Position numbers and translations under genes: made by a program. A stretch of DNA of 64,000 bases from a virus (lineage: Duplodnaviria > Caudoviricetes): IMG/VR virus record IMGVR_UViG_3300021958_011004, positions 8,275 through 72,274 of that record; one strand, given 5' to 3'. Shown here piece after piece: positions 2,281 through 49,714 of this stretch. How positions within the stretch are numbered: the first letter of the stretch is position 1; each line of letters starts with the position of its first letter. The notes below the pieces were generated by a model. That model ran no database searches. It was not told the DNA's origin and saw only the letters and a program-made list of their open reading frames with translations.

Positions 2281-2733
2281 CTAACGTCTGATTCTTCTTT
2301 GTTTTCTTCTTCTTAGCGACTCAGACATATAATCCATCGGAAAAATCAGTTTCTGACATTTAGCAACAACACTCCTACCGAGCTTAGTCGCATAATCATC
2401 ACCTAAAGTCTCGGCATCCGAAAGCAAGTCTTTGTTAGGATCGAATATATATTCCTCGCCAGTAATTTTGTTTGTAAGTTCTACATCACCATCATCATCA
2501 ATTGAAACTATAATCGCAATAGTATCTTCAGTTTCGTAATCATATACCAAAATGTTTTCAGCATTTTCCTGTCCATCTTGAATATTTATCGTTTCTAATC
2601 CCTGATCTTTACAATCTTCGATTATTGCGGATGCAATTTGATATGAATAAGAATTAACACGAGCGTGTGTATAACTACTATCATACATCTCTTTTAAAAT
2701 CATTTTTCTTAATTGTTTTCTTGATAATTTCAT
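2281..2733 (-). CDS. Hypothetical protein with MKxxxxQLR leader (putative virion internal protein)
   Basis: N-terminus MKLSRKQLRKMILKEM; basic C-terminus. Confidence 0.6.
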   Translation of the reverse strand: MKLSRKQLRKMILKEMYDSSYTHARVNSYSYQIASAIIEDCKDQGLETINIQDGQENAENILVYDYETEDTIAIIVSIDDDGDVELTNKITGEEYIFDPNKDLLSDAETLGDDYATKLGRSVVAKCQKLIFPMDYMSESLRRRKQRRIRR

Positions 2734-2813
2734 CTTTTAATTCTCCACAAAAGCTTTTGTATAGTTTTAATTATAATCTATGAAAATAAAGTTCTATCTC
2801 TGCAATAAAAAAA

Positions 2814-2851
2814 TGGACCCTCAAGGACTTGAACCTTGGACCTGCCGATTA
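2814..2851 (-). pseudogene. Displaced 3' part of a tRNA (position ~36 to discriminator; Ile/Met-like)
   Basis: Minus strand TAA TCGGC AGGTC CAAGG TTCAAGT CCTTG AGGGTCC A: intact T arm; acceptor 3' strand pairs 7/7 with GGACCCT at 3631-3637. Confidence 0.8.
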
Positions 2852-3493
2852 GTATAGGTGATTGTGTATCTCATAAGTCCCTTTTTTAATTTTGTTGATT
2901 TCATTTTTTTTAATGACAATTAAGTTTTCTACAACTTCCCACTTGGCCAAATCTTTTTCTGTCTGATATCCTTTAACTTCAACATATCGATCAAACTCAG
3001 GAAGATAAAAGTCAGGATAATAACTTCTTTCTTTTCCTTCGTAAATATACGAAAATGATTCTACCTTATTAGTCCATTTAATTCCTTTAGAGTCTAAATA
3101 TTTTGCAGTTAACAGTTCCCATGTGCCTCTAAGACTAAATCCTTTATGTTCGTATATTTTGGTCCTTCCGCCCTTATTTCCATGGCGATATGACTCAGGA
3201 TTGTTTTTTGCAACTTCAGACATAATTTTACTATGATTTTCTTTTCTATCTTTAGACCAAGTTTTCCCTTTGTTGCTTTTTGACAATTTCTCTCTTGTTT
3301 CTTTTGAAACTTTAAAGTTTGGATTTTTTGTAAATTGATTATTTGTTTTCTTCCCGTACATGGGATTATTTTTTCCTTTTCTTCTGGTAGCTGGATGAGC
3401 AACAGAATTTGGGTTTAATTTGCAGTACCCTTTATGACTGCTAAGTGCATTAATCGTTTTATATTCTTTAGAACAAAATTGACAGATTTCCAT
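2849..3493 (-). CDS. Homing-endonuclease-like protein (Zn finger + NUMOD3-like + PD-(D/E)XK)
   Basis: CQFC...H...C; KETREKLSKSNKGK; YYPDFYLPEFDRYVEVKGY; start at MEICQ with AGGAG upstream. Confidence 0.75.
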   Translation of the reverse strand: MEICQFCSKEYKTINALSSHKGYCKLNPNSVAHPATRRKGKNNPMYGKKTNNQFTKNPNFKVSKETREKLSKSNKGKTWSKDRKENHSKIMSEVAKNNPESYRHGNKGGRTKIYEHKGFSLRGTWELLTAKYLDSKGIKWTNKVESFSYIYEGKERSYYPDFYLPEFDRYVEVKGYQTEKDLAKWEVVENLIVIKKNEINKIKKGTYEIHNHLY

Positions 3494-3572
3494 GTGTAAC
3501 TCCTGATATATCTTATATAAGTATATACCATTTAAGTTAACTGCTCTAACCTTTAGAAAATAAATTGAAAGA

Positions 3573-3637
3573 GTAGACAGGGTGGGGATTGAACCCACGA
3601 CCCCGGAGTTATGAGCTCCTCACTGAGCTAAGGGTCC
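3573..3637 (-). pseudogene. Chimeric, D-arm-less tRNA(CAT)-like sequence
   Basis: GGACCCT TA GCTC AGTG AGGAG CTCATAA CTCCG GGGTC GTGGG TTCAATC CCCAC CCTGTCT A: anticodon and T arms good, D arm missing, acceptor stem only 4/7. Confidence 0.7.
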
Positions 3638-6578: not shown

Positions 6579-6580
6579 AA

Positions 6581-7527: not shown

Positions 7528-8493
7528 CTATGATTGTTTTTTCTCATCTTTAAGTTTTGTTGGAGTTTCAGGAACAATAAAACCACTTTCTTCTTTTAAC
7601 CCAGTAACATAATAGTTATTAAATCCCGGTCCGTCTATCTCTAATCTTCCGTTTCTCCAAGCAGCACTTGTTTTGTCGCTCAGATTTGTATTCGTAAGAT
7701 TAATTGCAAGAACACTTAAACCACTTCCCTTGGGAGGGTCAGGATATTTTCGAGTTGTAACCCTAATACCACGCAAAGCTTTTGCATCTTCAACTAGTTT
7801 TGATATATCAACTGTATCTGCTGCCATTATTGCTGCCTGATTTGAATCAAGTCTGTCAACGGGTATTGAAAGTAAATTGACATGATTTTGAAATGGTGGA
7901 TCAAAGACACCAGGTTTAACAGAAAGCTTTATTCCTCCCACACCGGGCAAATAATAAACTGCTTCTTTTTCTGAAGCTTCAGATCCACCTTTAGGTTCTG
8001 CTTTTTTAGCAGGTTCTTTTACTTTTGAACCCATAGCAACACCAGAAGCCTGAACCATTGATGCTAAGAAATCTTTAAATTCAGCCGCTTTTGATTCATC
8101 TTTCCCACTAACAAGTTTTTCTTTTGCCTTTCCTTTAGCATCAACCTGATTAGGGTAGTTACTGAAATAAACTGCACGCATATCAGCAAGTAGTTTTCCG
8201 ACACCTTTGCCCACACTAGAATCACTAGCTTTCACAGAAAAAGATTTGTTAAAAGGTTTGCCGTTCTTTGTGGGAACATCAACCTTGAGCTCGGTCATTC
8301 CTTCATCAGAGAATTTCATTGAATCCCAGTTGACTTTATATGTATAAGGATCTTCTTTGGCTCTCCTTTCCATTGCTGCAAAAGTATCGTTTTTTTCATC
8401 ATAGTCATAGTATTCAGTTTTAAAATCACCTACAGCCTCAACAATTAAAACTGATCTAATAATTTTTCTTAATTGAGACTCTGTTAGTTTCAT
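7528..8493 (-). CDS. Hypothetical protein with MKxxxxQLR leader
   Basis: MKLTESQLRKIIRSVLIVEA. Confidence 0.65.
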   Translation of the reverse strand: MKLTESQLRKIIRSVLIVEAVGDFKTEYYDYDEKNDTFAAMERRAKEDPYTYKVNWDSMKFSDEGMTELKVDVPTKNGKPFNKSFSVKASDSSVGKGVGKLLADMRAVYFSNYPNQVDAKGKAKEKLVSGKDESKAAEFKDFLASMVQASGVAMGSKVKEPAKKAEPKGGSEASEKEAVYYLPGVGGIKLSVKPGVFDPPFQNHVNLLSIPVDRLDSNQAAIMAADTVDISKLVEDAKALRGIRVTTRKYPDPPKGSGLSVLAINLTNTNLSDKTSAAWRNGRLEIDGPGFNNYYVTGLKEESGFIVPETPTKLKDEKKQS

Positions 8494-10535: not shown

Positions 10536-10887
10536 TTTTATCTCCTTTTAACAACACATAAATAGGTTTGTCATCTCGTTTCATCTTCTTTATTTTCAGC
10601 TCTTCTTTACACGCTTCTGACCTAGAACACACACTAAAAAAGCATAACAACTCAACGGGCCTTCTACTTCTTGTATACTTTGCACCCTTACTTGAATTGT
10701 TATGCTCAGATAAACGACGTTGCAAATCTGTGGTTATGCCCGTATAATAACTGTTATCACTACATTTTAAGAGATAAACGTACCAATGTTTATCTATGTT
10801 AATAGTAATCACCCCTGTCAGGACGTCTAGGATCTTGAATAAATCTACTATTTGCAAAACCGCTTGGTTCTTCATCATAATCATCAA
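10528..10887 (-). CDS. GIY-YIG nuclease (YhbQ/SLX1-like); true start probably near 10797
   Basis: WYVYLLKCSDNSYYTGITTDLQRRLSEHN...GAKYTR. Confidence 0.85.
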   Translation of the reverse strand: MMIMMKNQAVLQIVDLFKILDVLTGVITINIDKHWYVYLLKCSDNSYYTGITTDLQRRLSEHNNSSKGAKYTRSRRPVELLCFFSVCSRSEACKEELKIKKMKRDDKPIYVLLKGDKNG

Positions 10888-11233
10888 AGCCAGCTTCTAG
10901 GTCTTCATCTGAATCTTCAAAATAAACTCTAGTGTGATCATCAGCTTCAAGTGTAAATTCAGGTCTCATTGGCGGTTCTTGAGCTTTTACCCTGAAGGGT
11001 TCTTCTTTGGCAAGCTCAAGGTCAAATTTAGCCATAAAACTTAACAATTCTTCATTGCTCATGACAGTATTGACAGAATCTCTAACAGCAACTGATACTA
11101 TTCCTTTATCGTCTACTTCAATTTGATACAAGTCCCTATAGTCAGAACCTATCCCTTTCTCAATTGGATCATCGCCACCCTGAGCTATAGCTTCTTTAAT
11201 TAGTCTTCTTAATTGTCTTCTTGTTATTTTCAT
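10799..11233 (-). CDS. Hypothetical protein with MKxxxxQLR leader
   Basis: MKITRRQLRRLIKEA. Confidence 0.65.
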   Translation of the reverse strand: MKITRRQLRRLIKEAIAQGGDDPIEKGIGSDYRDLYQIEVDDKGIVSVAVRDSVNTVMSNEELLSFMAKFDLELAKEEPFRVKAQEPPMRPEFTLEADDHTRVYFEDSDEDLEAGFDDYDEEPSGFANSRFIQDPRRPDRGDYY

Positions 11234-11278
11234 CTTAACTCCAACACGTTATTATTAATTATTCTGAAGTATAATAAT

Positions 11279-12435: not shown

Positions 12436-12759
12436 CTAATGTTCATGATTACATGAATGAACTTCTTTTGCTTTCTTCCCTGTAACTTTTATCCATGCTG
12501 CCCACAAGAAGGGAACAACAAGCCAATGTAAACAAAATAGAATACTAGCCGGTATCAAAGCAAAAAATCCTGGATGGACAACCTTACCTAAATAGCCAAA
12601 CATTAAAGGAAACAATAAGTCCTCAATAATCTCCCATCCAATTATTATCACAACAAGCGCCAAGCCATGTTCTCTGAAAGTGGCTTTTATACTATTTAGA
12701 CTTATGTGTTCTAGTTTGTGTGACAACCGTTTTTTAATCCACTGAAACATTATTTTCAC
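12436..12759 (-). CDS. Small membrane protein
   Basis: Two to three hydrophobic segments. Confidence 0.55.
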   Translation of the reverse strand: MKIMFQWIKKRLSHKLEHISLNSIKATFREHGLALVVIIIGWEIIEDLLFPLMFGYLGKVVHPGFFALIPASILFCLHWLVVPFLWAAWIKVTGKKAKEVHSCNHEH

Positions 12760-13000
12760 CCTTAGAAACTATTTCTAAATAATCTTCAATTATCAGAACA
12801 TTACGACCCGTAGCTAGCATTAGAAATATTAACCTTTTATTATTTTGCAAAATATCATTTTCAAAGGAATCACTTCTGTCCGGTGAGACGCTAATAACAA
12901 GCATAGGAGAACGCCAGCAATTATCATCAGCACTAACAGGTAAATGCTTTACGAAATCCTTCTTTATTCTTACTAGGTCTCCCGGACAGATTGGATTCAT
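12734..13000 (-). CDS. KOW/SH3-like microprotein
   Basis: ICPGDLVRIKK. Confidence 0.45.
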   Translation of the reverse strand: MNPICPGDLVRIKKDFVKHLPVSADDNCWRSPMLVISVSPDRSDSFENDILQNNKRLIFLMLATGRNVLIIEDYLEIVSKGENNVSVD

Positions 13001-13514: not shown

Positions 13515-13745
13515 TTACAGTATAGTACTGCATTTTACATAACGTGACCAAATTTGTGTTTCTTTTTTTTCAAAGCTATATAACTTCATTGTCCTGCTAG
13601 ATAGCTCAAGAACAAGACACATGTGACTTTTCCATTCATCCCATGGAACTTCAACTTTAACAATGTCACCGACTTTTACGTTTGCTTTTGTAATAGATGT
13701 ATTAGTATTAGCTCTCGCAATGTCTCCTATACATAACTTTTTCAT
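13515..13745 (-). CDS. KOW/SH3-like microprotein
   Basis: KVGDIVKVEVPW. Confidence 0.45.
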   Translation of the reverse strand: MKKLCIGDIARANTNTSITKANVKVGDIVKVEVPWDEWKSHMCLVLELSSRTMKLYSFEKKETQIWSRYVKCSTIL

Positions 13746-13765: not shown

Positions 13766-14179
13766 TTACTTAAATAATCTGTCTCTTAACTTTTGAAAGA
13801 ACAAACCGAACCTACCTTTTTTCTGCTCAAATGATTTTATACCGCCATCAATGGTTGTTTCAATCCAATTGACTAGATTCTCACGTGACTCTGGATCTTT
13901 CATTGTGTCATAAGCATGTTTTAAGGCTCCAAACAAAGCAGCTTTAACTTCTGCTTCTGTGTTTAGCTTTGTCTCTTTTCCCGCTTCTTTTATAAAAGCT
14001 TGAATTTTTTGACCCAGCATTCTTAAAACAATTGATATCCCACTGTCAGTACCATTATCATAATTGATTGGTATTTCAATATCGGGTAACTTTTCTTCTT
14101 CAGCAGCTTCTTCAGCCGCCTCTTGTTCAAAGAGAAAACTTTCAATTAGTGTGTTTAATTCTTTTCTTGTTAATTTCAT
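13766..14179 (-). CDS. Hypothetical protein with MKxxxxEL leader and FEQEAAEE motif
   Basis: MKLTRKELNTLIESFLFEQEAAEE. Confidence 0.6.
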   Translation of the reverse strand: MKLTRKELNTLIESFLFEQEAAEEAAEEEKLPDIEIPINYDNGTDSGISIVLRMLGQKIQAFIKEAGKETKLNTEAEVKAALFGALKHAYDTMKDPESRENLVNWIETTIDGGIKSFEQKKGRFGLFFQKLRDRLFK

Positions 14180-14237
14180 GTCGTAACCATAACCTTATTA
14201 ACTTAATTATGGTTCTTCAAAAGACTTTGCAAGAAAA

Positions 14238-14525: not shown

Positions 14526-15206
14526 ATGTTTATCTACAATGACAACATCGGTTTTGTTGAGTATGTTCAACACATGGGTGATGACCTAACAATCGTAAAT
14601 GCAGCAAGAGTTAGCTTTGGCAAACAAAAATCAGCGCTCGATGTCAGAGACGAGAAGCTAATAAAATACCTAATTGCCAACAAACACACATCTACTTTAG
14701 AACATAATGTTGTTACCTTTAGATTCAAGGTACCACTTTTCGTAAGAGGTCAACATCACAGACACAGAACGTGGTCTTACAACGAAGTCAGTAGAAGATA
14801 CACAGAAGAGAACTTACAATTCTATGAGCCGACTTCTTTTAGAACTCAACACAAATCAAATCGTCAAGCAAGCAATGAAGACCAGGTCAATCCTGTAATA
14901 TGGCCTGACTTAGCAGACCCAGACTATGGCACATGCGCGGCAGAAGCCATCAAAAATCATCACCAAACTTCACTTGACCTATATAACAGGCTAGTTAGCG
15001 AAGGTGTCTGTAGAGAGCAGGCGCGTGGCGTTCTGCCTCAGAATCTTTATACTGAGTATTACGGCACGACAAATCTTAACAACTTAATTAAGTTTATTAA
15101 ACTAAGAGAAGATTCGCATGCTCAATGGGAGATTCAACAAGTCGCTCGGGCTTGTAGAGAAATAGTAACTGAATTATGGCCAGTAGCAATGAAACACTTA
15201 GAATAA
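14526..15206 (+). CDS. thyX: FAD-dependent thymidylate synthase
   Basis: IVNAARVSF, H.S.LEH, RHRTWSYNEVSRRY, EQARGVLP; GGAGG RBS. Confidence 0.95.
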   Translation: MFIYNDNIGFVEYVQHMGDDLTIVNAARVSFGKQKSALDVRDEKLIKYLIANKHTSTLEHNVVTFRFKVPLFVRGQHHRHRTWSYNEVSRRYTEENLQFYEPTSFRTQHKSNRQASNEDQVNPVIWPDLADPDYGTCAAEAIKNHHQTSLDLYNRLVSEGVCREQARGVLPQNLYTEYYGTTNLNNLIKFIKLREDSHAQWEIQQVARACREIVTELWPVAMKHLE

Positions 15207-16466
15207 CAAGTTAAGTCTTCTTCTAATTGCTTCTCTGATAATTCTTCTAATTTTAGATTCTGAGACAGGTTTCTCAGATTTAACTTTTTGTGCAATACCA
15301 CCACCCAAGACATCAACAATAAATTCACCTGTCACTTTAAAAGGATAGGGACTGAATTGTTCATCTCTAATGACGACACCTTCATGATTTGTTTCTTCAC
15401 CAATCATGTCACCTATTTCTGAAGTTAATCCTTTTAAGAAATCATTACCAAGTAGTCTTGTAGCATGCATTAAAACTGCACCATCAATTAATGCTCTAAC
15501 TCCATCAGCATCTTCAGTAGAAACTACAAGAGTATCTAAAGGTGTATTGCCCTCTAAGATAGCTAAATATATTCTTTTGTCAAACGGACTAATACGTCTA
15601 CCATCAGTGGATTTATACATTGTGTCGTATCTACCAACATACTGTGCTGGTTTAACAATAATTTCTGAGAGCCAATCTTTAAGAGGTCTTCCTTGTAGAT
15701 GGTCAATTCCACCAAAATTGTCATTATATTCTTCAGAGACATTAACTCTAAATGGTGTGTTTAAAGAAGAAGAATAGTCAATTGTTACATCTTCTTTTTT
15801 CTGCGTCGGTATTGGGCCAAAGACTTTAAACCCATGTTTTTGAGAAACAGTATTTAATTTGTTAATCAAAGACATCATAGCCTGTGAATCATATGGCACT
15901 TCAACAGAACCTGATTTTTTATTATCTGGATTAGGTAAACCGTCTCTAGTCTTTATTAAGCTCACACCTGTTTGTGCAGCTATTTTCTTTGGGACCCTAG
16001 AATACTTTTCATAAAAAGCATTAACACCATGAATTGCAATAAAATTCATTGAATAGCCAACAGCGTTTGTAGCACCCATAACATACTCTGTGTTTAAGAA
16101 ATAGTGTGGGTTATCAACAAGTCCTAAAGTCTTTAGCTCGGGCTTAATCATGGGTAGTGCTTCATTTAAAATAGTAAGTAGATTTGTAATTGCAGGAATC
16201 ATGCCGTGATTCTCTCCAAATCTTTCTCCTATTCTTGATAAAGTAACACCTTCAACGTCAATAGGTTTTTGAGAACCTCTATCTACTGCAAATTCATTAC
16301 CAGCAAGCTTAAAAGAAACATTGATACCGTCAATTTTAACGTTAATTAATTCTGCTGCTTGTTGTGCGTAAGATTTTAAATCATCAAAAATCTCAATTAA
16401 GTCATTTCCGGATTGCACCCTTTCTAAGTCAAAAGGATGTCTCATATGTCCACCAGCGCCACCCAT
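15198..16466 (-). CDS. RNA/DNA-ligase-superfamily nucleotidyltransferase (GGAGGHM family)
   Basis: Motif I KIDG, motif IV EGVVIR, motif V PFKVTG; C-terminal SESKIRRIIREAI. Confidence 0.65.
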   Translation of the reverse strand: MGGAGGHMRHPFDLERVQSGNDLIEIFDDLKSYAQQAAELINVKIDGINVSFKLAGNEFAVDRGSQKPIDVEGVTLSRIGERFGENHGMIPAITNLLTILNEALPMIKPELKTLGLVDNPHYFLNTEYVMGATNAVGYSMNFIAIHGVNAFYEKYSRVPKKIAAQTGVSLIKTRDGLPNPDNKKSGSVEVPYDSQAMMSLINKLNTVSQKHGFKVFGPIPTQKKEDVTIDYSSSLNTPFRVNVSEEYNDNFGGIDHLQGRPLKDWLSEIIVKPAQYVGRYDTMYKSTDGRRISPFDKRIYLAILEGNTPLDTLVVSTEDADGVRALIDGAVLMHATRLLGNDFLKGLTSEIGDMIGEETNHEGVVIRDEQFSPYPFKVTGEFIVDVLGGGIAQKVKSEKPVSESKIRRIIREAIRRRLNLLF

Positions 16467-18532: not shown

Positions 18533-20308
18533 CTATCTTCTACCGTAATACTTCTTTCTTAATAGGGATGCGTGACTCTCACCCAGCTCATAGATTCGTC
18601 TTCTTTCTTGAATCTTTCTGTCTTCTCTTAAATCACCCGCTTTTGGCTTGTATCTAAAGTCAGGTTCTGGAAGGGGGGATAGAGATTGACTGTTAGATTT
18701 ACTTAGAAAACCAAAACCTTTATCCTTAGGTTCTTGCATTTCTGTCTTATAAAATTCAGGAAGTTTATTTTTTAATTCTGATTTTGCTGTACTTGATGAC
18801 ATTCCACTATCTTTCAAAACTTTTAAAAACAAAGCTTTGATAAGATTCGTAACTTTTGTAGGCGTTTCCAAGTTCATTATTTCTTTTTCAAAATGGGATG
18901 ATTGAACAATACGATTAAAAAGTTCTTGAGCAAGATTAGAATCTTGATTAATTTGATTTAATAATTCCACAGCCATATTAGTAAGCTCTTTTCTATCATC
19001 CTTGGTGACATTAATTTTAGTATTTGGAAACAAAGCCTTGTTTGATGTAGAAACTATAATCTGGAATTTATCAACCAAACTCAATCCCGGGTCTTTCCTA
19101 AATATGTCACTTACAATAGACTTTGCTTTTAAAGCTCCTGCAGATTTTTCAGGTCTTGAGATTAATCTCATTGCTATTTTTAAACCGCCAAAACCAAACT
19201 TTGGAGCATTAATTCTACCACTATCTGGTACTCCTGCAATTGTTTGTATGATACTTGCTGCTAATGAATCAGCAGAGTCTATAATATCACCTTTAATTTT
19301 AGCATGTAAATCAGCTATTTCGGGACTTTTTGTAATTGCTTGTGAATTAAAAGTTTCAAAATCTTTTTCAACATCTGAAAGATTTAGTTTGTCAAATAAC
19401 TTTTCAGGTCTCATTAAGAAGTCTGAAACATATTGTTTGTCTGCCACGCCTGAAAAGTGTTCAGCTTGTTCATCAGTCACGGGTTCAAGATAATACCTTC
19501 TTAAAATATCTGACCTAATCAAATAACATCTATCTGTTGCTATAAAGACATAGTATTTATTTTCATCCATCGGAGGAATTGTATTACTGTAGTTATCTTG
19601 CGGCGTGGGTTTTTGTGAAGCTTTTACTTCTATTTTGTATTTTCCACCTTCAACATCGACGCCTCTACTTGTAGCATCTGTGTGATTGAAAGTCCCCCTT
19701 AAGAACAAGCTGCAAATTATTAAAGCTGCAATTTCCCATCTATCATTATCTTCTTCAAAGTTAAAATCTGTACAAGACATTACATCAAGAATTGATTGAA
19801 CAGCTACTTCTGGATTAACTCCCTTAAGATTTTTAACATATGTCGATATAAACTCATTGTTAGAATTAACACCCTTGAAGTAATCTTTTACTGACAGCAT
19901 CTTTTCTGCTGCTGATGAAGTCGTAAGTTTTTGAATTTCTTCATCTTCATATTCGTCAAAGGTGGGTATTATTAACGTTGAAGCTGATATATTTTGCGTG
20001 TTTTTTCTATTAAGTTCTTCTATTGTCTCTTTGAAGTATTGGTCTTTTTGAGCAATTGTTTGGATATCGTAGCTCTCATAAGCTCTGTTTCGCTTAGAAT
20101 CTAAGAGCCCTTTAGAAGCTTCAAGCATTCCTGAATCACCACTTGAAAGATTATATGTAATATCATGCAAAATTGGAAATGCAGTATTCTTGTTTGCAGA
20201 AGCTCTAGCCTTAACTATAGCTAAGCTTACAGGGTCATCTTCTAAGCCTGGGGCGATATCTACTGTTTCTTTTATAAGTTCTATTAATTGTCTTCTTGTT
20301 ATTTTCAT
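18533..20308 (-). CDS. Large protein with MKxxxxQL leader and PD-(D/E)XK-like nuclease motif
   Basis: MKITRRQLIELIKE; RGVDVEGGKYKIEVKAS. Confidence 0.55.
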   Translation of the reverse strand: MKITRRQLIELIKETVDIAPGLEDDPVSLAIVKARASANKNTAFPILHDITYNLSSGDSGMLEASKGLLDSKRNRAYESYDIQTIAQKDQYFKETIEELNRKNTQNISASTLIIPTFDEYEDEEIQKLTTSSAAEKMLSVKDYFKGVNSNNEFISTYVKNLKGVNPEVAVQSILDVMSCTDFNFEEDNDRWEIAALIICSLFLRGTFNHTDATSRGVDVEGGKYKIEVKASQKPTPQDNYSNTIPPMDENKYYVFIATDRCYLIRSDILRRYYLEPVTDEQAEHFSGVADKQYVSDFLMRPEKLFDKLNLSDVEKDFETFNSQAITKSPEIADLHAKIKGDIIDSADSLAASIIQTIAGVPDSGRINAPKFGFGGLKIAMRLISRPEKSAGALKAKSIVSDIFRKDPGLSLVDKFQIIVSTSNKALFPNTKINVTKDDRKELTNMAVELLNQINQDSNLAQELFNRIVQSSHFEKEIMNLETPTKVTNLIKALFLKVLKDSGMSSSTAKSELKNKLPEFYKTEMQEPKDKGFGFLSKSNSQSLSPLPEPDFRYKPKAGDLREDRKIQERRRIYELGESHASLLRKKYYGRR

Positions 20309-20875: not shown

Positions 20876-21172
20876 CTAACTTCTATAAGTATTACTCGAT
20901 AATAGAATGTTTCTAATTATTGCCCGTATCCTTACCTCACTCAATCGTGCGTGAGGAACATCATCAGTCAAACCCATTGCAGTCAAATAATCAGCTATCT
21001 GCTGATGAACAGGTTTCTTATTGTCAACATATCCACCCTTGTGTCCATCAGGCCATCCACCATGACTTGTGGGTCTGTCTAAATATAAATCTTTAATCGT
21101 CTGGCTTTTCTTTTTTCTTTTCATCATAATACTCATATAAAGCAGGAACCGTAACCAGCATTGTTGAAACAA
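20876..21172 (-). CDS. Hypothetical protein with C-terminal SExRIRxIIR motif (start uncertain)
   Basis: LDRPTSHGGWP...LSEVRIRAIIRNILL. Confidence 0.5.
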   Translation of the reverse strand: MFQQCWLRFLLYMSIMMKRKKKSQTIKDLYLDRPTSHGGWPDGHKGGYVDNKKPVHQQIADYLTAMGLTDDVPHARLSEVRIRAIIRNILLSSNTYRS

Positions 21173-21480: not shown

Positions 21481-21504
21481 ATGAACCTCCACATTAGATT
21501 ATAA

Positions 21505-27785: not shown

Positions 27786-28059
27786 TTTTATTCTCTATAA
27801 ATTTAATCTTAATTATTAAATCATCTATACCTTTAATTATCCTGTGCCATTCTCTATTTCTTATAAAGTAATTTTCATTAATTTTCAATTTTTCTGGTAA
27901 TAAATTTTCTTTTTGTAAATACCATCCTGAACCACTTAAAACTTCAATTAATCTATCTTCTTTATCTCTATGCCACAATAATTCTTCATCATCAATATCA
28001 ATACCAAATCTTCTTATTTGATAATCATTACCTTCTTCAATAATCTTATAAGGATTCAC
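27757..28059 (-). CDS. Cupin-like hypothetical protein
   Basis: ELLWHRD.EDR.IEV...W..Q....WHRIIKG. Confidence 0.6.
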   Translation of the reverse strand: MNPYKIIEEGNDYQIRRFGIDIDDEELLWHRDKEDRLIEVLSGSGWYLQKENLLPEKLKINENYFIRNREWHRIIKGIDDLIIKIKFIENKNENNKKTTY

Positions 28060-28719
28060 TTACCACCATGTATATCTTGACTTAGAACCTGTTAAGCTAG
28101 GATACCTTCCTGCTCTACATGCCCAATATCTGGCTGAAGTCTTATCCTTTGTTTCTTTGCATCTGTGTCTAGCAGCAAATGATTTTCTAGCTTTAGGATT
28201 ACTCAATCTCAATTTCATCTCACGAGAACCAAATGTAACTTTCTTTACATTTCCCGTCTTCGGATCTTTCACATAAACTCTATACTGTCCGCCACTTTTG
28301 CCTGGATTTCTAGATGGTTTATTCAGTTTAACTTTTTTACCTTGATAATAAGATCCTGATTTCTTCTTTTTAGAAGATTTCTTTTTCTTTTTACGACCCT
28401 CGAGAAGATTAAATTCTTCTTCCATTTCATCATCAATTTCCGCAAGAATTGGATAATCCAAGGCAACTCTTCTACCTTCGTAAACTCCCCATTCTCCTAA
28501 ATCAGACTTGATTAAATCTAAATCAACAGCATCAATCTCAAGCAAACCTTCTTCATACCAGTAACGTGCTTCTCTTATTAAATTGAAATAAGCTTCTGAG
28601 CCAGGTCTGAAGATATTTTTTGATAATGACAATTCTTTTTCAACGTGATAAAGTAATCCCTCTGAAAAAAGAACCCCTTGAACTATCGCTTCTTGTAGCT
28701 TTTGTTTTGTAAATCTCAT
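28060..28719 (-). CDS. Basic phage protein with leader-like N-terminus
   Basis: MRFTKQKLQEAI; poly-Lys; VYVKDPKTGNVKKVTFG...ARKSFAARHRC...SARYWAC. Confidence 0.65.
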   Translation of the reverse strand: MRFTKQKLQEAIVQGVLFSEGLLYHVEKELSLSKNIFRPGSEAYFNLIREARYWYEEGLLEIDAVDLDLIKSDLGEWGVYEGRRVALDYPILAEIDDEMEEEFNLLEGRKKKKKSSKKKKSGSYYQGKKVKLNKPSRNPGKSGGQYRVYVKDPKTGNVKKVTFGSREMKLRLSNPKARKSFAARHRCKETKDKTSARYWACRAGRYPSLTGSKSRYTWW

Positions 28720-43077: not shown

Positions 43078-44136
43078 CTAATAGTTCTGGAGTTGATTAA
43101 TAAATTCTCTCATTTTATTCATCACTGGTTCTTCAAGTGTTGTATCAACAAGAGCTTTTGCAATTTGTGGTAATAATTCAGCAATTGCTATTTTCCTACC
43201 AGCGATGGCTTTTTCCTTTAATTCTTCAGTAATGTCATATCCATCACTGTTTGGAAGCGAGTTCATTAATCTGGTGTCAGCTTGAATGTCATTTAAAGCA
43301 GCAATTTGTTTATAAGCAGCTTGTGCATCTTCTGTTTCTATGTTACTTAAAACATCAGTTACTTTAAGATAATTGTCGATATCCTTGTCTAAAGAATTTA
43401 AATCCATGTTAGATATCAATGCCTCGGGAAATACATTTGCAAATCCTGCAGGTAAAAATATTTCCTCTACTTCTGCTTGCTCGTTTAACTTTCTTTCTGT
43501 AACAACATCTGCTACTGTTGCAGCAGCCTTAATCTGTGGAATAGGAGCTTTTTTTGCTGCCTTTATGACAACATCAGCAGCTTTTTCTTTACCTTTTGTT
43601 GAAGCAATTGAAGAAGCAATACTCTTAACAATTCCAGTTTTGTCTTCTTTTTCAACCTCAACGGCAGGCTTCTTAACAGCGGGTGTTGTGCCTCTTGAGA
43701 TGTAATCACTGCCGATACCTATCACCTCAGCAAATAAATCAATAGCACGCTGAATCCAATAACAGGCCACTGCAGGAACACCCATAATGTTTAAAGCCAT
43801 GTCTACATTATTAATAATTTCTCCTAAAACAAATCTCAAGGCAGAAAGCTCAGAAGCAGTATTTGGCAAAAATTTTGCTAGAGTTGAATCTTTTGTCATT
43901 TGTTGAATAGCACCATCAACGCTTGTAGCTCTTTTATCTCCAAGAAATAATTTTTCAAATCCTGGAATTCTAGAAAAATCTATTTCACAAGTCCCTGGTT
44001 TCCATTCTGTGTATCTGAAAACTAGGCTGCTTCCACGCTCGATTTCATTTATGAGCTTCTTTTTTTGACAGCAGCAGCCTTCTGCTAATAAAATATTTCT
44101 TATTTCTTTTCTTAGTTGAGATTCTGATATCTTCAT
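43078..44136 (-). CDS. Hypothetical protein with MKxxxxQLR leader
   Basis: MKISESQLRKEIRNILLAE. Confidence 0.65.
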   Translation of the reverse strand: MKISESQLRKEIRNILLAEGCCCQKKKLINEIERGSSLVFRYTEWKPGTCEIDFSRIPGFEKLFLGDKRATSVDGAIQQMTKDSTLAKFLPNTASELSALRFVLGEIINNVDMALNIMGVPAVACYWIQRAIDLFAEVIGIGSDYISRGTTPAVKKPAVEVEKEDKTGIVKSIASSIASTKGKEKAADVVIKAAKKAPIPQIKAAATVADVVTERKLNEQAEVEEIFLPAGFANVFPEALISNMDLNSLDKDIDNYLKVTDVLSNIETEDAQAAYKQIAALNDIQADTRLMNSLPNSDGYDITEELKEKAIAGRKIAIAELLPQIAKALVDTTLEEPVMNKMREFINQLQNY

Positions 44137-44138: not shown

Positions 44139-44882
44139 TCAATCTCTCATTAATCTTCTAACTTTTTCTCTTAATGCGATCACGTCTTGAGATTCATTAA
44201 CTTTGATCGGAGGAGTTGTGTCTTCTTCTTCGTCACTAACTTGAATAGTAGCTTGAACTTGTTGTTGGGCTTCAGGTTTCTTTTCAACTTCGCTTGATGC
44301 TTCTTCGCCCTCTTCTCTTTTTGTAATATCAAAATAATGTTTTGGATCACTCGGATCTTGTGCTTCTTCAGCTTCAATTGCACCAGTTAAAATCTTTGAA
44401 AGTTCTTTAAGGAATAAAAATAAAATTTCTCTTTCATTCTCATCAAGTCTATCATAATATCCACTTAATTCATCTTTAATTTCTTTGTCTCTTAAAGATC
44501 TTCCTGCGCGTAATGTATTAATGGCTGTTATAACAGAGTCAAAAGAATAACCACCTTCTGTATCATCAAGACTCATCGCTTTTTCTGCTGCTGGTAATTC
44601 TTCTTCTCTTTCTTCTGCGTCAGGATTATCATCAACTTCTTCAGCAGCAGCTTCAGATTCATCTCCGGCAGCTACTTCCTCTTCTTCTTCGACTTCCTCT
44701 GCTGCAACTTCTTCCTCTTCTTGTTCATAAAGATTTTTCATTTCACTTTCAAGGTTACTCTTAAACTTATCAGCATAAGGATCTGATGATTCATTTAGTT
44801 TTAGTTTAGATTTTTTTACTGCTTCCTCAGATACGACTCGTAACAAGTTTAGCAATTCTTTTTCATTGTTGATTTTAAACAT
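44139..44882 (-). CDS. Very acidic protein with EQEEEEVAAEE motif (scaffold-like)
   Basis: KLNES, LYEQEEEEVAAEE, KVNES. Confidence 0.6.
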   Translation of the reverse strand: MFKINNEKELLNLLRVVSEEAVKKSKLKLNESSDPYADKFKSNLESEMKNLYEQEEEEVAAEEVEEEEEVAAGDESEAAAEEVDDNPDAEEREEELPAAEKAMSLDDTEGGYSFDSVITAINTLRAGRSLRDKEIKDELSGYYDRLDENEREILFLFLKELSKILTGAIEAEEAQDPSDPKHYFDITKREEGEEASSEVEKKPEAQQQVQATIQVSDEEEDTTPPIKVNESQDVIALREKVRRLMRD

Positions 44883-45674: not shown

Positions 45675-48509
45675 TTACACAACCTCATAATCAGATAGAT
45701 TACTCATGGCAACCTGAGAAGCCATATCTTGTTTATAAGCATCGATAGCCTTAAGTAACATTGAAGAAGTATATCTTTGCCCTGATTTACCTTTTGCCAT
45801 TACCTTTCCAAAAACTTTATCAATCTCACCTACAAACTGACCAATGAAATCCTCTTCTTTTGTTGCACCTCTTACTTTCATGAAACCAGTATCAATTGTA
45901 TCTTCAAACCAGTCTTTTACAATGTCAGCAACTTCAGCATAAGTCTCAGCATCAATGCCCATCTCAATCAATTTCTCTGCTGTTTTACCCATCTCTGCAT
46001 AACTTGGGACTTCTTTGGTTCCTGTAAAGTATTCCGCAACAGAACTAGCAATTTTATTTCTCTCTTTATCATTAAGCTTTTTCTTTTTATTAACTTCAAT
46101 TTTATCAAAATCTAAATAATCTTTAACCAACTCTGCAACATAATCTCTAGCTTCTCTATCGATAATGCTTGTTATGTTACTAAACATGTCACCAACAATT
46201 TGTCTAACAATATATCCACTAACAGTATAAGCATAATCAGTAGCTTTTTCAATATCATCTGCATCTTCTGGGTCAATACCTACATCAGCAATAAAATCAT
46301 TGTATTCTGCCATTTGTCCCTTAATGTGGTCAAGAATATCAATGGTATAATCATGTTCTTCTTGATCAGCAGGCTTCTTTGCTTTTTTCTTTGCTGCCTC
46401 AGTAGCTTCTTTTGTGAAGTCAATAGCATCTATGATGTAAGGAACAATAGCCTCTTGCATTTGACGCATCTTTTCAAACATTGGAGAATCTTGACCGCCT
46501 TTAACACCTCTAGCTGCATCTTCAAATTTCTTTTTAACATGTTTGTTATACCATTGTCTGATACCATTGGCGTTAGAAAAACCAAAGAAAGGTGCAAGTG
46601 TTTCATATTCTCTTGTATCTGCAAGTCTTTGCAACTCAGATAAAAATTTGTCTTTTGCTTTCTGATCGACAGCGATATCAGCTAAGTCTGCATCAACCTC
46701 AACAGAAGCCATTTCTTTTTCTTCTTGTTTTCTAGCCTTGTCTTCTTGAAACTTTTTAGCTTCTTCAAACCTTCTATTAACAACTTCTTCAACTTTATCC
46801 TTAAATTCATCAGCAGGATAAGTGTGAATTACACCTGAATTGTTAAAAACATATTCGTCACCCTTCAGACTTCTTTCAACAAAAGTATCTAACAAAGCAT
46901 TTTCAACTTCAGACAATTGTTCCATTGTTGCATTATTGTTAAAATGCAGTCCGTTTTGGAATTTAAATGGTCCTGTTTCTTTTGTTATAACTGTCATAAA
47001 CATGTCATTAACAACTTTATTTAAAAACTCGCCCTTGGGTAATTGAGCATTTCTTTTCTTGTCAAGTGTAAGATGAGCAGCTAATGTAGAAGCAATGTAT
47101 TTAACAGCATCAGGCCCGTTAATTCTATTCATAAGGCTAGCTTTGAGAATATTAGACCTAAGGTCTTCTAATTTCTTTTTAAAAGATGCATCAGAAGGAT
47201 CCAGTTTGTTCTTTAAAAGCTTTGTTAGAAAGTTGCTAGTCCATTTCTCAATACTTTTTTCATTTGAACTGGCTTTGTTTAAATTTACGCTTGAAAAAGA
47301 ATTGGAAAAACCAATGCCATATTCATTTGCAACCATCTTTGCTGCTTCTTTAACATTCTTAACAGTTCTATTAAGCAATGCATTATAAGCTTCAACCTCA
47401 GCCGTCTGAGATATGTCATGAAGAATGTCAAATGTTTCAAACACCAATCGATTCAACAAACTTAATTCTTTCTTTTCTTCTTCTGACATTTGATCAAAAA
47501 CAGATTGTCTTATTCTACTCTTGTAAATTTCCTCAGCTTTTCTCTCTGCTTCTTCTTCTGAGCCAAATGTAACAGCACCACCAACCCTTCCACTTGATTT
47601 GTAGCCTTCTTCATAGCCCAGTATATAATCTGGTTCTTGTTGTTTTGGAATAGCTGGAAGCTCTTCAGTGTCATCTTGAATACCGTCGTTATATCCCTTT
47701 AAGTACAGATCTTTATCTTGTGCAGCTTTAAATGATGCCAAAAACTCAACATCAGCAAGTGTCTCTTGTGCTGGTTCAGCTTTCTTTTTTGCTTTTCGAA
47801 CTAGAGTTTTTATACCACCACTTGACTGACCAGCACCATATATTTGAGGAGCTTTAGTCTTTACTGCTGCTTGAGTTTCTGTGCTGTCTTGCTCCCCGCC
47901 AAAGCCAATAGATTCTCTTCTTTCAATGTCATTCATAATCATTGTTGTAACAGCAATATCGTCAACTCCTTCTTCCTGGAAATCTGACCGGCCAGCAATT
48001 GTCTTAGCCATGTCATCAATTACCTGGAATCTTTGAACTGGATCACGTTGTCTGATTGCTTTTACTACTGCTGACTTAATAGCATCCTTCATGCTGTCAG
48101 ACAATCTTGAGTCTTCTTCGTAAGACTCAGATAAAATTCTCTTTACCTCTGCTAACATGAAAAGCTTTTCATCTTCTTTGTCAAGCGCTGAATCTAAAAT
48201 CTTGTGAAGCATTCTGTAAAAGAACTCAATTTCACTTCTTGGGACTTCTTTGCAAATTCTAATAGCAGCTGCTTGTAATTCTTCTCTTGAAGCAGGAACA
48301 AAGTCTGGATCATCAACGGGAGGCTCTTCAACTGATAATTGTGTGGCCATCTGTGGCCTTGGTTTGATTGGTTCTTCGTCTTCTGCAAAGAAGCCAAGGA
48401 AATTTCCTCCCATGTTACCAGCAATATGATAATCTGATCTAGAAGGTGATTCTGTCATAACTTGTTTTAGAACGTTAAACAGGACGCTTTTCTTAACTTT
48501 TATTTCCAT
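45675..48509 (-). CDS. Large (944 aa) helical hypothetical protein, probably virion-associated
   Basis: Long ORF; GGAG RBS; leader-like MEIKVKKSVLFNVLKQVMTE. Confidence 0.7.
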   Translation of the reverse strand: MEIKVKKSVLFNVLKQVMTESPSRSDYHIAGNMGGNFLGFFAEDEEPIKPRPQMATQLSVEEPPVDDPDFVPASREELQAAAIRICKEVPRSEIEFFYRMLHKILDSALDKEDEKLFMLAEVKRILSESYEEDSRLSDSMKDAIKSAVVKAIRQRDPVQRFQVIDDMAKTIAGRSDFQEEGVDDIAVTTMIMNDIERRESIGFGGEQDSTETQAAVKTKAPQIYGAGQSSGGIKTLVRKAKKKAEPAQETLADVEFLASFKAAQDKDLYLKGYNDGIQDDTEELPAIPKQQEPDYILGYEEGYKSSGRVGGAVTFGSEEEAERKAEEIYKSRIRQSVFDQMSEEEKKELSLLNRLVFETFDILHDISQTAEVEAYNALLNRTVKNVKEAAKMVANEYGIGFSNSFSSVNLNKASSNEKSIEKWTSNFLTKLLKNKLDPSDASFKKKLEDLRSNILKASLMNRINGPDAVKYIASTLAAHLTLDKKRNAQLPKGEFLNKVVNDMFMTVITKETGPFKFQNGLHFNNNATMEQLSEVENALLDTFVERSLKGDEYVFNNSGVIHTYPADEFKDKVEEVVNRRFEEAKKFQEDKARKQEEKEMASVEVDADLADIAVDQKAKDKFLSELQRLADTREYETLAPFFGFSNANGIRQWYNKHVKKKFEDAARGVKGGQDSPMFEKMRQMQEAIVPYIIDAIDFTKEATEAAKKKAKKPADQEEHDYTIDILDHIKGQMAEYNDFIADVGIDPEDADDIEKATDYAYTVSGYIVRQIVGDMFSNITSIIDREARDYVAELVKDYLDFDKIEVNKKKKLNDKERNKIASSVAEYFTGTKEVPSYAEMGKTAEKLIEMGIDAETYAEVADIVKDWFEDTIDTGFMKVRGATKEEDFIGQFVGEIDKVFGKVMAKGKSGQRYTSSMLLKAIDAYKQDMASQVAMSNLSDYEVV

Positions 48510-48561
48510 TACAATACTCCTATCTTGTATTAAATAGGTAGGTTATCATCATTTATTATAA

Positions 48562-48960
48562 CTATTGGATTACTTTTGATGTTAGATATACAATAGCTAT
48601 CCCAGATGCAATTCCTGAAACATACACAGCTGTGTTTGTCCATCTAGGTTTATATACCTGTTTCTCAAGAAAGTCTATCTGTTCAGCTCTGAGTGCTTCT
48701 AAACCACTGCTTTTTTCTAAACATGCAGTTAAGTCTGCTTCTTTTATTTTTAATTGTAATTTAAAATCTGCATCTGCAATTGCTAAATCTCTTTCTGCAT
48801 CAATCTTACACTTTCCAACTTCTTCATCTGCTTTGGCAATAATTTGAGCAACACCCTCCGGAGACAACAAAGTGCCGCTGAAGGGTGCTTTTTCACCCTT
48901 TTCTATTGCGACACTGTCTTTACCGTATGCTAGAGCACACAATAATAAAATTTTTAACAT
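48562..48960 (-). CDS. Exported protein with C-terminal TM helix
   Basis: Signal peptide, coiled coil, AVYVSGIASGIAIVYL. Confidence 0.6.
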   Translation of the reverse strand: MLKILLLCALAYGKDSVAIEKGEKAPFSGTLLSPEGVAQIIAKADEEVGKCKIDAERDLAIADADFKLQLKIKEADLTACLEKSSGLEALRAEQIDFLEKQVYKPRWTNTAVYVSGIASGIAIVYLTSKVIQ

Positions 48961-48963
48961 ATA

Positions 48964-49335
48964 TCAATCCAGGTCAAAACGATCATTTAATTCGTCAGTT
49001 GCACCTTCTGCACCTAACCCACTAATTCTATCACGTTTTTTCCCGATTGTTACCGTTAATATTTCTGTTTGTTCACCATGAACTTCTTCTGCTTCTTTCA
49101 CATCTTCTTGATAATCAGAAACAGCATCTTTAATACTATTAACTTGTCTTTGATTTGCCTTGTTAATAATCTCTATTTCTTTTTCTTTGGCTTCTTTTGC
49201 TTGCTTCCAAATTTCTTTAATATTAATTTTCTTCCCAATTAAAATTAAGACGATTGGCACAGAAACGCCTAGAATAAATTTCCAGTTTATTCTGCACCAA
49301 TCTAAAAAACTTAATTTCACTAAATTAATATCCAT
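48964..49335 (-). CDS. N-anchored coiled-coil membrane protein
   Basis: ILGVSVPIVLILIG then charged helix. Confidence 0.55.
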   Translation of the reverse strand: MDINLVKLSFLDWCRINWKFILGVSVPIVLILIGKKINIKEIWKQAKEAKEKEIEIINKANQRQVNSIKDAVSDYQEDVKEAEEVHGEQTEILTVTIGKKRDRISGLGAEGATDELNDRFDLD

Positions 49336-49714
49336 ATTCAGCGTGTAGAGCTGATTGATCCATTCCCGCTGATCTGAAAGCGTCTCTTATTGCGCGCTTA
49401 ACCATCTCAGCTTCAGGAGATGCATTTCCTGATCCTAAAGGATAGACTTGTCCATAAACAGTAATATTAGTAACAGGTTCACCAGAATAAAAAACCGGCA
49501 TCATATTTGATACTCGAGTACCGTCTGTCGGTGCCTTTATGGAAAGCTTCGTCACATCAAATCCAGCATCACTCACAATCGCCTGTACAATTCTCCACGC
49601 CGAATTGCTTCCCGCCATCAGCTCTTCTCCTGTTATACCACTAGCAGGGTAAGTCATAGCATCTTCAAGCGCTTCATTAATTAATCTTCTTAATTGTCTT
49701 CTATTTAATTTCAT
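49325..49714 (-). CDS. Hypothetical protein with MKxxxxQLR leader
   Basis: MKLNRRQLRRLINEALE (internal ATG at 49714). Confidence 0.6.
   Translation of the reverse strand: MKLNRRQLRRLINEALEDAMTYPASGITGEELMAGSNSAWRIVQAIVSDAGFDVTKLSIKAPTDGTRVSNMMPVFYSGEPVTNITVYGQVYPLGSGNASPEAEMVKRAIRDAFRSAGMDQSALHAEYGY

What the first reader, a model, noticed from the sequence alone, without database searches (positions are those of the whole stretch)
2281..49714. Shared N-terminal leader on unrelated proteins: putative capsid-targeting / prohead-protease signal
Seen: MKLSRKQLRKMILKE (2733), MKLTESQLRKIIRSVLIVE (8493), MKITRRQLRRLIKE (11233), MKLTRKELNTLIE (14179), MKITRRQLIELIKE (20308), MKITRKQLIKLIKE (27785), MKISESQLRKEIRNILLAE (44136), MKLNRRQLRRLINE (49714), weaker at 28719, 44882, 48509; 23 nt are identical between the 11233 and 20308 starts. 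Downstream sequences are unrelated. Related helices occur internally or C-terminally (SESKIRRIIRE in 15198, SEVRIRAIIR in 20876, NESIIRRLIRKVLLE in 26460). Knowledge: T4 internal proteins share a 10-aa capsid-targeting sequence (MKTYQEFIAE) removed by gp21, which cuts after Glu in L/I-x-E. Inference: a portable tag that loads diverse cargo, including enzymes, into the head for injection; a modular payload system and possible biotech tag.
Basis: partly seen in the sequence, partly recalled or inferred. Interest (0 to 1): 0.85.

Follow-up and report, generated by a model that had tools for sequence, protein, structure and literature searches.

The report
Shared capsid-targeting-like leader on phage proteins
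Eight unrelated proteins of this uncultured jumbo phage start with the same short helix ending in a glutamate; it most likely marks them for loading into the phage head and trimming by a T4-type head protease, but no experiment has shown this yet.

Summary
Eight minus-strand genes begin exactly with MK[IL][STN]..[QE]L..[LIM]I..E. A profile built from them scores 18-22 bits on these eight; the next best hit in all six frames of the 72-kb contig scores 6.5 bits. The protein bodies are mutually unrelated.

The same leader starts at least 197 ORFs in IMG/VR. It is essentially absent from 596 Gb of prokaryote genomes, apart from likely phage contigs binned into MAGs.

The window is 26% of a ~280-kb phage and holds no head genes. 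However, all 10 leader-bearing contigs that are at least 54% complete encode a T4 gp21-type (S77) prohead protease. The closest near-complete relative has a T4-like head module and at least 20 leader genes.

The leader ends in [LI]-x-E, as does the aligned capsid-protein maturation site of the relatives.

One carrier is a Pol-beta-fold nucleotidyltransferase. Its conserved domain starts right after a second helix ending LLE. Stand-alone homologs begin at exactly that residue.

The helix also occurs at C-termini and between domains, so it behaves as a portable docking module.

Packaging and cleavage remain untested.

This scan noted the same kind of leader on at least eight other phage contigs. 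I rate it a new variant of the T4 capsid-targeting-sequence principle, with moderate to high interest.

The parts
2281..2733 (-). Leader-bearing gene, 150 aa. The leader is the first 15 aa (2689-2733). The body is acidic with a basic C-terminal tail.
7528..8493 (-). Leader-bearing gene, 321 aa. Long-type leader of 19 aa (8437-8493) ending IVE.
10799..11233 (-). Leader-bearing gene, 144 aa. Leader of 14 aa (11192-11233).
13766..14179 (-). Leader-bearing gene, 137 aa. Leader of 13 aa (14141-14179). It lies directly downstream of the ribosomal protein S21 gene.
18533..20308 (-). Leader-bearing gene, 591 aa. Leader of 14 aa (20267-20308). It has a conserved central D...E-V-K motif and an invariant basic C-terminal tail. 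Its function is not established.
26460..27785 (-). Leader-bearing gene, 441 aa. In order: leader of 14 aa (27744-27785); a hypervariable spacer; a second helix ending LLE (27276-27320); then a conserved Pol-beta-fold nucleotidyltransferase domain (26463-27275).
43078..44136 (-). Leader-bearing gene, 352 aa. Long-type leader of 19 aa (44080-44136) ending LAE. The syntenic gene in relative G008 keeps only the leader.
49325..49714 (-). Leader-bearing gene, 129 aa. Leader of 14 aa (49673-49714). The syntenic gene in G008 keeps only the leader.
15201..15263 (-). The same helix motif at the C-terminus of the 422-aa protein 15198-16466.
20894..20941 (-). The same helix motif near the C-terminus of the 98-aa ORF 20876-21172.
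28060..28719 (-). Possible degenerate long-type leader (start 28719). Homologs of its C-terminal domain in G013 and G001 also start with leader-like helices.
45675..48509 (-). 944-aa protein with a degenerate leader-like N-terminus. Its G008 homolog starts with a clearer leader-like helix.
44139..44882 (-). 247-aa protein with a weak leader-like start. It is the first gene of the operon that contains the 44136 carrier and is preceded by ATAATTAG.
2767..2774 (-). Promoter-like ATAATTAA, 41 nt upstream of the 2733 start.
11255..11262 (-). Promoter-like ATAATTAA, 29 nt upstream of the 11233 start.
14203..14210 (-). Promoter-like ATAATTAA, 31 nt upstream of the 14179 start.
27809..27840 (-). Two promoter-like ATAATTAA copies, 31 and 55 nt upstream of the 27785 start.

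Best explanation
The leader is a short amphipathic, mostly basic helix that works as a portable head-loading and processing signal, analogous to the capsid targeting sequence (CTS) of phage T4.

Proposed mechanism (inferred): the helix docks its protein onto the scaffold/core of the assembling prohead. The phage's T4 gp21-type serine protease then cuts after the glutamate of the terminal [LI]-x-E. The mature protein stays in the head and enters the next host together with the DNA.

Shown here:
- The tag exists on eight unrelated proteins.
- It is selected at the peptide level.
- It is specific to phage contigs.
- It co-occurs with T4-type head protease genes in every sufficiently complete carrier contig tested.
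- Its end has the same form as the aligned capsid maturation site.
- In one carrier, the conserved enzyme domain begins exactly after such a site.

Inferred only: docking to the scaffold, cleavage, packaging and injection.

The same helix also sits at C-termini and between domains of large proteins. The docking function is therefore probably independent of position, and cleavage is a separate, optional step.
For: 1. Eight N-terminal copies stand far above noise, and the bodies are unrelated.

Of these, 197 open an ORF of at least 40 aa (median 108 aa). The positions left free in the pattern still show a strong consensus. Conserved residues use all synonymous codons; for example, Leu8 uses six codons. 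Selection therefore acts on the peptide.

3. In 596 Gb of prokaryote genomes there are only 107 stretches. About half are chance short ORFs. All multi-copy cases are MAG contigs that look like phage.

4. 16 of 24 large carrier contigs encode Peptidase_S77 (T4 gp21 family), including 10 of 10 that are at least 54% complete.

5. The window shares many proteins with G008 at 40-76% identity, in synteny. G008 is 289 kb and 96% complete. It has T4-like gp17, gp20, gp21, gp23, gp18 and gp19 and at least 20 leader ORFs.

6. T4 gp23's known cut (LTE|A) aligns with [LIV][LVI]-x-E|[STA] in the relatives' capsid proteins. This is the same form as the leader end.

7. In the 441-aa carrier's homologs, the leader is invariant and residues 20-150 are hypervariable, and deleted in two homologs. 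A second helix ends LLE, and the conserved domain starts right after it. Remote stand-alone homologs start Met-Gly-Gly at exactly that residue. Others carry different helices that also end h-x-E before the same Gly-Gly.

8. In syntenic slots, G008 has leader genes whose bodies are unrelated to ours. This is the pattern described for the T-even internal-protein loci, where only the CTS is conserved (PMC3012670).

9. T4 gp21 cuts after Glu at N- and C-terminal propeptides and at multiple sites within propeptides (PMC5694885). C-terminal and internal helices therefore do not contradict the model.

10. Small proteins in the relatives' head modules, next to the protease and capsid genes, start with leader-like helices. 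One strong leader gene lies 3 kb from the G013 capsid gene.
Against: - The 72-kb contig has no protease, scaffold, portal or capsid gene, so the link to a T4-type head rests on relatives.
- No carrier has been seen in any virion proteome.
- Eleven cultured T4-like or jumbo phages, T4 included, lack the leader. Only Flavobacterium phage immuto has one short variant.
- The leader shows no sequence similarity to the T4 CTS.
- The carriers lie among metabolic and replication genes, not in a structural module.
- The head-module small proteins match the leader profile only weakly, at 7.8 bits or less.
- C-terminal copies often lack a following Glu.
- Most carrier bodies are acidic, unlike the basic T4 proteins IPII and IPIII.
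- I could not measure the base rate of S77 proteases among large aquatic viral contigs, so the 10/10 association has no proper control.
Confidence: 0.55

Rival explanations
1. The helix is a general docking or oligomerisation module for some other phage or host machine, such as the phage GroEL, the replisome, the membrane or DNA. It would have no role in head loading.
For: - The motif works at N-termini, at C-termini and between domains.
- The carriers are scattered among metabolic and replication genes, next to GroEL, a sigma factor and a helicase.
- The helix is amphipathic and basic, with net charge +1 to +5, which would suit nucleic-acid or membrane binding.
Against: - It does not explain why the motif so regularly ends in [LI]-x-E.
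- It does not explain why conserved domains and stand-alone homologs begin exactly after that Glu.
- It does not explain why every sufficiently complete carrier contig has a T4-type head protease.
Confidence: 0.2
2. The helix is a protease-removable propeptide that keeps enzymes inactive or folded until cleaved, in the manner of a zymogen. It would not target them to the capsid.
For: - The 441-aa enzyme has an invariant leader, a dispensable spacer and a cut-site-like junction before the conserved domain.
- Large multi-domain relatives have the helix between domains, like a polyprotein.
Against: - Many carriers in relatives are only 80-150 aa and come in tandem arrays. They resemble T4 internal proteins more than zymogens.
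- Known S77 proteases act inside proheads (PMC5694885).
Confidence: 0.1
3. The leader is an N-terminal degron or regulatory tag, read by a host or phage AAA+ protease or chaperone to time the abundance of these proteins.
For: It is a short, conserved N-terminal peptide on diverse proteins. About half the carriers have their own promoter-like element, which suggests co-regulation.
Against: - The motif also occurs at C-terminal and inter-domain positions.
- There is no resemblance to known degron classes (from my own knowledge, not tested).
- This reading does not explain the association with T4-type head genes.
Confidence: 0.07
4. The conservation lies at the nucleic-acid level, as a translation-initiation enhancer or a recombination cassette at gene starts.
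For: - A-rich second to sixth codons.
- A 25-nt exact identity between two leaders in this genome. This could promote cassette exchange, as proposed for the T-even internal-protein loci.
Against: - Across 203 IMG/VR copies, the conserved residues are encoded by all synonymous codons.
- The motif recurs at C-termini and inside proteins.
- Recombination may be a side effect but cannot be the main constraint.
Confidence: 0.03

Closest known systems
Capsid targeting sequence (CTS) of phage T4 internal proteins IPI-III and Alt, removed by prohead protease gp21
   Same: - A short N-terminal peptide is the only part shared by otherwise diverse proteins.
- It starts with Met-Lys and ends hydrophobic-hydrophobic-x-Glu.
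- The phage lineage has a gp21-family (S77) protease and a gp23-type capsid.
- Cargo bodies are swapped between relatives while the tag is kept.
   Different: - Different and longer sequence: 13-19 aa against 10 aa, with no match to the T4 motif.
- Basic rather than acidic or neutral.
- Many more clients: 8 in a quarter of this genome and at least 20 in G008.
- Clients reach 591 aa and are dispersed through the genome.
- The helix also occurs at C-termini and between domains.
- No experimental evidence.
Propeptides of phiKZ, 201phi2-1 and SPN3US head and ejection proteins, cut by S80 proteases
   Same: Jumbo phages in which many head and ejection proteins lose propeptides by cleavage after Glu in a three-residue motif. 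Some paralogs share identical N-termini, and propeptides contain multiple cut sites (PMC5694885).
   Different: - Those phages use A/S/G-x-E motifs and a different protease family.
- They have no single conserved leader across dozens of unrelated proteins.
Encapsulin cargo-loading peptides and P22 scaffold-domain fusions
   Same: A short terminal peptide or helix docks cargo to the interior of an HK97-fold shell. It can sit at either terminus.
   Different: The sequences are unrelated, and those systems involve no proteolytic trimming. This is only a functional analogy and was not tested here.
Polyvalent multi-domain proteins of phages and conjugative elements (Iyer et al. 2017; cited from memory, not read here)
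   Same: Remote homologs of the nucleotidyltransferase cargo lie inside 1000-1500-aa proteins, with the helix motif between domains. This suggests delivered multi-effector proteins that are cut into parts.
   Different: No recognisable Pfam domains were found in those large proteins. Membership was not established.

Membership tests
T4-type capsid targeting sequence / gp21-cleaved propeptide | A short N-terminal peptide shared by otherwise unrelated proteins of one phage | tested here: met
   Eight copies score 18-22 bits against 6.5 bits for noise. The bodies are unrelated.
T4-type capsid targeting sequence / gp21-cleaved propeptide | The peptide ends in a gp21-type site, hydrophobic-x-Glu | tested here: met
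   All eight end in [LIV]-x-E. The same form is found at the position aligned to the T4 gp23 cut in the relatives' capsid proteins. This is sequence-level evidence only.
T4-type capsid targeting sequence / gp21-cleaved propeptide | The phage encodes a gp21-family (Peptidase_S77) protease and a T4-type head | tested here: inconclusive
   Absent from the 72-kb fragment, which is 26% complete. Present in 10 of 10 carrier contigs that are at least 54% complete, and in the nearest relative G008.
T4-type capsid targeting sequence / gp21-cleaved propeptide | Sequence similarity to the T4 CTS | tested here: not met
   The T4 pattern, with up to 2 mismatches, hits T4 twice and hits G000 and G008 not at all.
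T4-type capsid targeting sequence / gp21-cleaved propeptide | Carriers are present in virions with the leader removed, and the leader is sufficient to load a foreign protein | not testable with these tools
   No cultured carrier has a proteome. Among the cultured phages searched, only Flavobacterium phage immuto has a short variant.
Pol-beta-like nucleotidyltransferase superfamily (cargo domain of 26460-27785) | The G-[GSA]-G...D-x-D motif plus a third acidic residue, on an NTase palm fold | tested here: met
   The motifs GAGDIDL and QIDL are invariant. The AF2 domain has pLDDT 70-87. VIA gives Z 10.2 to Pol X and 9.7 to Pol beta, and all top 50 hits are NTases. Foldseek gives Pol lambda at E 1e-5. 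Pfam finds no hit, so the subfamily is unknown.
Sec/Tat/lipoprotein signal peptide | A hydrophobic core of about 10-15 residues after a basic N-region | tested here: not met
   The leaders are charged amphipathic helices with mean hydrophobicity of -0.04 to -0.68 and no hydrophobic run.

The most novel reading that the evidence does not exclude
The helix is a position-independent cargo-loading peptide of a large uncultured lineage of jumbo phages with T4-type heads. Under this reading, it can sit at the N-terminus, at the C-terminus or between domains. It would dock enzymes and polyproteins to the prohead core, and the head protease would then cut at adjacent h-x-E sites. If so, the whole injected protein set of these phages could be read directly from sequence, and it would be far larger and more enzyme-rich than in T4.
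Probability: 0.3. Interest if true: 0.8.

Novelty: new variant of a known kind. Interest (0 to 1): 0.6.

Why it matters
If the tag really loads proteins into the head, it gives a sequence-only way to list the proteins that a large and abundant group of uncultured aquatic jumbo phages injects with its DNA. These would include early weapons and counter-defence enzymes, such as a nucleotidyltransferase. It would also show that the T4 internal-protein principle is much older, more widespread and more heavily used than T4 suggests. In addition, it offers a second, unrelated peptide tag for packaging foreign proteins into phage capsids. One cultured phage, Flavobacterium phage immuto, carries a short variant of the leader, so the idea can be tested directly.

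Tried and rejected
- Pfam and PHROGs gave no informative family hit: none for the eight carriers or the 422-aa and 944-aa proteins beyond two marginal PHROG matches (E about 0.002) to unknown-function families, and none for ten leader or head-module proteins of relatives.
- tblastn of a 25-aa leader and of the 591-aa carrier against cultured phages found nothing.
- The leader DNA pattern had no match in immuto, Mel-JY01, HTVC008M, Syn9, P-SSM2, RM378, XacN1 or RsoM2USA. My recollection that T4-like cyanophages carry this leader was therefore not borne out for the two tested (Syn9 and P-SSM2).
- A looser pattern and blastn found only immuto gene 190.
- AlphaFold of the 591-aa carrier was too poor to search (pLDDT 47). 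Its PD-(D/E)xK-like D...EVK motif therefore remains a guess.
- Profile searches of the Protein Data Bank with A1 and A2 found nothing.
- The ESM Atlas gave nothing for the 352-aa carrier.
- A candidate promoter word for G013 (GATATATA) did not generalise.
- Head-module small proteins and scaffold proteins of relatives look leader-like by eye but score only 7.8 bits or less. I use them as weak support only.
- The ATAATTA association (Fisher p = 0.0024) is post hoc, because the word was picked from these same upstream regions.
Full report
**What the window is.** The window is bases 8275-72274 of a 72,274-bp IMG/VR virus contig. CheckV rates the contig 26% complete, so the genome is probably about 280 kb. 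GC content is about 35%, and almost all genes lie on the minus strand. Recognisable genes are metabolic or replicative:
- a GMP-reductase-like enzyme
- an XPD-type helicase
- a PLP-dependent enzyme and an amidohydrolase
- GroEL
- a sigma-70-like factor
- a split DnaE polymerase, ThyX and ribosomal protein S21

No T4 gp21-type protease was found in the contig, and none of the proteins annotated was a capsid, portal or scaffold protein.

**Checking the observation.** All eight strong leaders are at the stated coordinates, each at the ATG of a minus-strand ORF of 129-591 aa. A profile built from their first 13 residues scores them at 18.3-21.7 bits. The best other hit in all six frames of the whole contig scores 6.5 bits, so there are exactly eight strict copies, all in frame and at an ORF start.

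With the first 20 residues removed, the eight proteins give no mutual BLASTP hit below E = 0.1. They also have no homologs in three fully fetched related genomes. The longest exact nucleotide run between two leaders is 25 nt, between 11233 and 20308.

They are the same motif as the long-type leaders without the initial Met-Lys. A profile of that core scores them at 10.6-16.2 bits.

The three 'weaker' starts do not score. However, the 944-aa protein and the 28719 protein have homologs in relatives that start with clearer leader-like helices.

**How widespread and how specific the leader is.** Many are tandem clusters of up to seven copies.

Re-scanning the fetched loci gave 203 matches. Of these, 197 open an ORF of at least 40 aa, with a median of 108 aa. 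The positions left free in the pattern still show a strong consensus: Lys5, Arg9, Lys13 and Glu15. Conserved residues use all synonymous codons; Leu8, for example, uses six. The constraint is therefore on the peptide, not on RNA or DNA.

The same pattern in 596 Gb of prokaryote genomes found only 107 stretches. About half are chance matches in short or hydrophobic ORFs. All multi-copy cases lie on MAG contigs that look like binned phage, for example a 306-kb contig with seven copies and a 101-kb contig with eleven. The refutation condition 'equally common in non-phage proteins' is therefore not met.

**Link to a T4-type head.** Among 24 large carrier contigs, 16 encode Peptidase_S77, the T4 gp21 family. 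This includes all 10 that are at least 54% complete; the eight without it are all 45% complete or less. I could not measure the base rate of S77 in comparable contigs, so this association has no proper control.

I fetched three carrier genomes whole (G001, 190 kb; G008, 289 kb; G013, 278 kb). They have 8, 20 and 6 leader ORFs at 10 bits or more, plus weaker ones. All three encode T4-like gp17, gp20, gp21, gp23 and gp18, and G008 and G013 also a recognisable gp19.

The window shares its DnaE with all of them at 41-47% identity. With G008 it shares dozens of proteins at 40-76% identity, in synteny over window ~37-62 kb. This phage therefore very probably has the same kind of head, but that is an inference from relatives.

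An alignment of capsid proteins places the known T4 gp23 cut (LTE|A) opposite LRE|T, LKE|S, LRE|A, VSE|A and ISE|A in the relatives. That is the same hydrophobic-x-Glu form as the leader end.

In the relatives' head modules, small proteins next to the protease and capsid genes begin with leader-like helices. One strong leader gene lies 3 kb from the G013 capsid gene. These head-module proteins match my profile only weakly, at 7.8 bits or less.

**Anatomy of one carrier.** The 441-aa protein (26460-27785) has close homologs only, at 69-92% identity. In their alignment:
- the 14-aa leader is invariant
- residues 20-150 are hypervariable and are deleted outright in two homologs
- a second helix ends in LLE
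- the sequence from the next residue (Gly-Gly-Asn-Ala-Phe) to the end is highly conserved

AlphaFold models the N-terminal 180 residues as flexible, with two helices. The C-terminal domain is modelled with pLDDT 70-87. That domain matches family X polymerases and other Pol-beta-type nucleotidyltransferases. Foldseek gives E about 1e-5. VIA gives Z 10.2 and 9.7, and all top 50 hits are NTases. This agrees with the invariant GAGDIDL and QIDL motifs.

An exhaustive search with the mature domain found 74 remote relatives:
- Many stand-alone proteins start Met-Gly-Gly-Asn exactly at the predicted cut.
- Four carry different N-terminal helices that also end h-x-E just before the same Gly-Gly.
- Many carry the helix motif at their C-terminus.
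- In 1000-1500-aa relatives, the motif follows the domain as an inter-domain linker ending in Glu-Glu.

This is the pattern expected of a removable, portable docking and processing module. The literature records that T4 gp21 trims both the N- and C-termini of Alt and cuts propeptides at several sites (PMC5694885).

**Turnover of cargo.** Between conserved flanking genes, G008 has leader genes in the same slots as window genes 44136 and 49714, with similar lengths. Only the leader aligns. This mirrors the T-even internal-protein loci, where only the CTS is conserved (PMC3012670).

**Regulation.** The 8-mer ATAATTAA occurs six times on the sense strand of the contig. Five of the six lie 29-55 nt upstream of four leader genes. 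The 7-mer ATAATTA lies 20-60 nt upstream of 4 of 8 leader genes, against 8 of 123 other ORFs. Two of those eight precede the gene with the C-terminal helix and the operon that contains carrier 44136. The word was chosen from these same regions, so the p-value of 0.0024 is optimistic. It looks like a -10-only promoter. Whether it is late-class is unknown.

**Comparison with known systems.** The closest known system is the T4 CTS, which shares the logic, the Met-Lys start and the hydrophobic-x-Glu end. The sequence itself differs: the T4 motif is absent from this contig and from G008. The leader here is also longer and basic, has many more and larger clients, and is not confined to N-termini.

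Among cultured phages, I found only a short variant, at the start of gene 190 of Flavobacterium phage immuto. The library holds no paper reporting its virion proteome. Three literature searches (two on capsid targeting, one on phage immuto) turned up no description of this leader.

Earlier notes of this scan describe the same kind of leader on at least eight other phage contigs and reach similar readings. They are AI notes. I treated them as leads only and re-derived everything from this window and its relatives.

**Verdict.** I put 0.55 on a CTS-like head-loading and protease-processed signal. The main rival is a docking helix for some other machine. The finding is a new variant of a known kind. 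It is of moderate to high interest and can be tested directly in phage immuto.

Noticed in passing
window 14238-14438 (-): A phage-encoded ribosomal protein S21 (Pfam E 7.7e-18) lies directly upstream of leader gene 13766-14179. In relatives G001 and G008 and in Microcystis phage Mel-JY01, the S21 gene sits inside the head module, between the protease and capsid genes (next to a leader-like small protein in G001 and Mel-JY01).
   Followed up: partly
window 1626-1793, 1991-2218, 12734-13000, 13515-13745, 17859-18065, 21277-21492 (-): A family of small (55-90 aa) paralogs with a shared G-D-[IL]-V start, possibly SH3/KOW-like. There are more copies upstream of the window. Pfam finds no hits.
   Followed up: partly
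window 18533-18625 (-), C-terminus of the 591-aa carrier: A 30-residue basic C-terminal tail is essentially invariant (28 of the last 30 residues) among homologs that are only 54-60% identical overall. Carriers 2281-2733 and 13766-14179 also end in basic tails. This may be a second functional signal, such as DNA binding or C-terminal processing.
   Followed up: no
window 15198-16466 (-): A 422-aa protein has a K-I-D-G motif reminiscent of ligase/nucleotidyltransferase motif I and the helix motif at its C-terminus. It has no Pfam or PHROG hit and is preceded by ATAATTAG.
   Followed up: no
window 29680-30357 (+): One of the few plus-strand ORFs. About 72 aa of it match (42% identity) the 419-aa protein that follows the protease in the G001 head module.
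   Followed up: no
window 14526-15206 (+): A ThyX thymidylate synthase (Pfam E 6e-50) is encoded on the opposite strand to nearly all other genes.
   Followed up: no
L202/L238 (NHDW01000006.1, 306 kb), L207/L235 (PBIO01000025.1, 101 kb), L215, L233/L245: Contigs filed in GTDB MAGs as Methylococcaceae, Halobacteriovorax, Peribacter and Aenigmatarchaeota carry 5-11 leader genes each. They are probably jumbo-phage contigs mis-binned into cellular MAGs. One IMG/VR carrier is labelled a giant-virus MAG (L044).
   Followed up: no
L170-L174 (LR756508.1, 484 kb uncultured huge phage): A published 484-kb huge-phage genome has a related capsid protein (52% identity to G013) and four leader-pattern ORF starts.
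   Followed up: no
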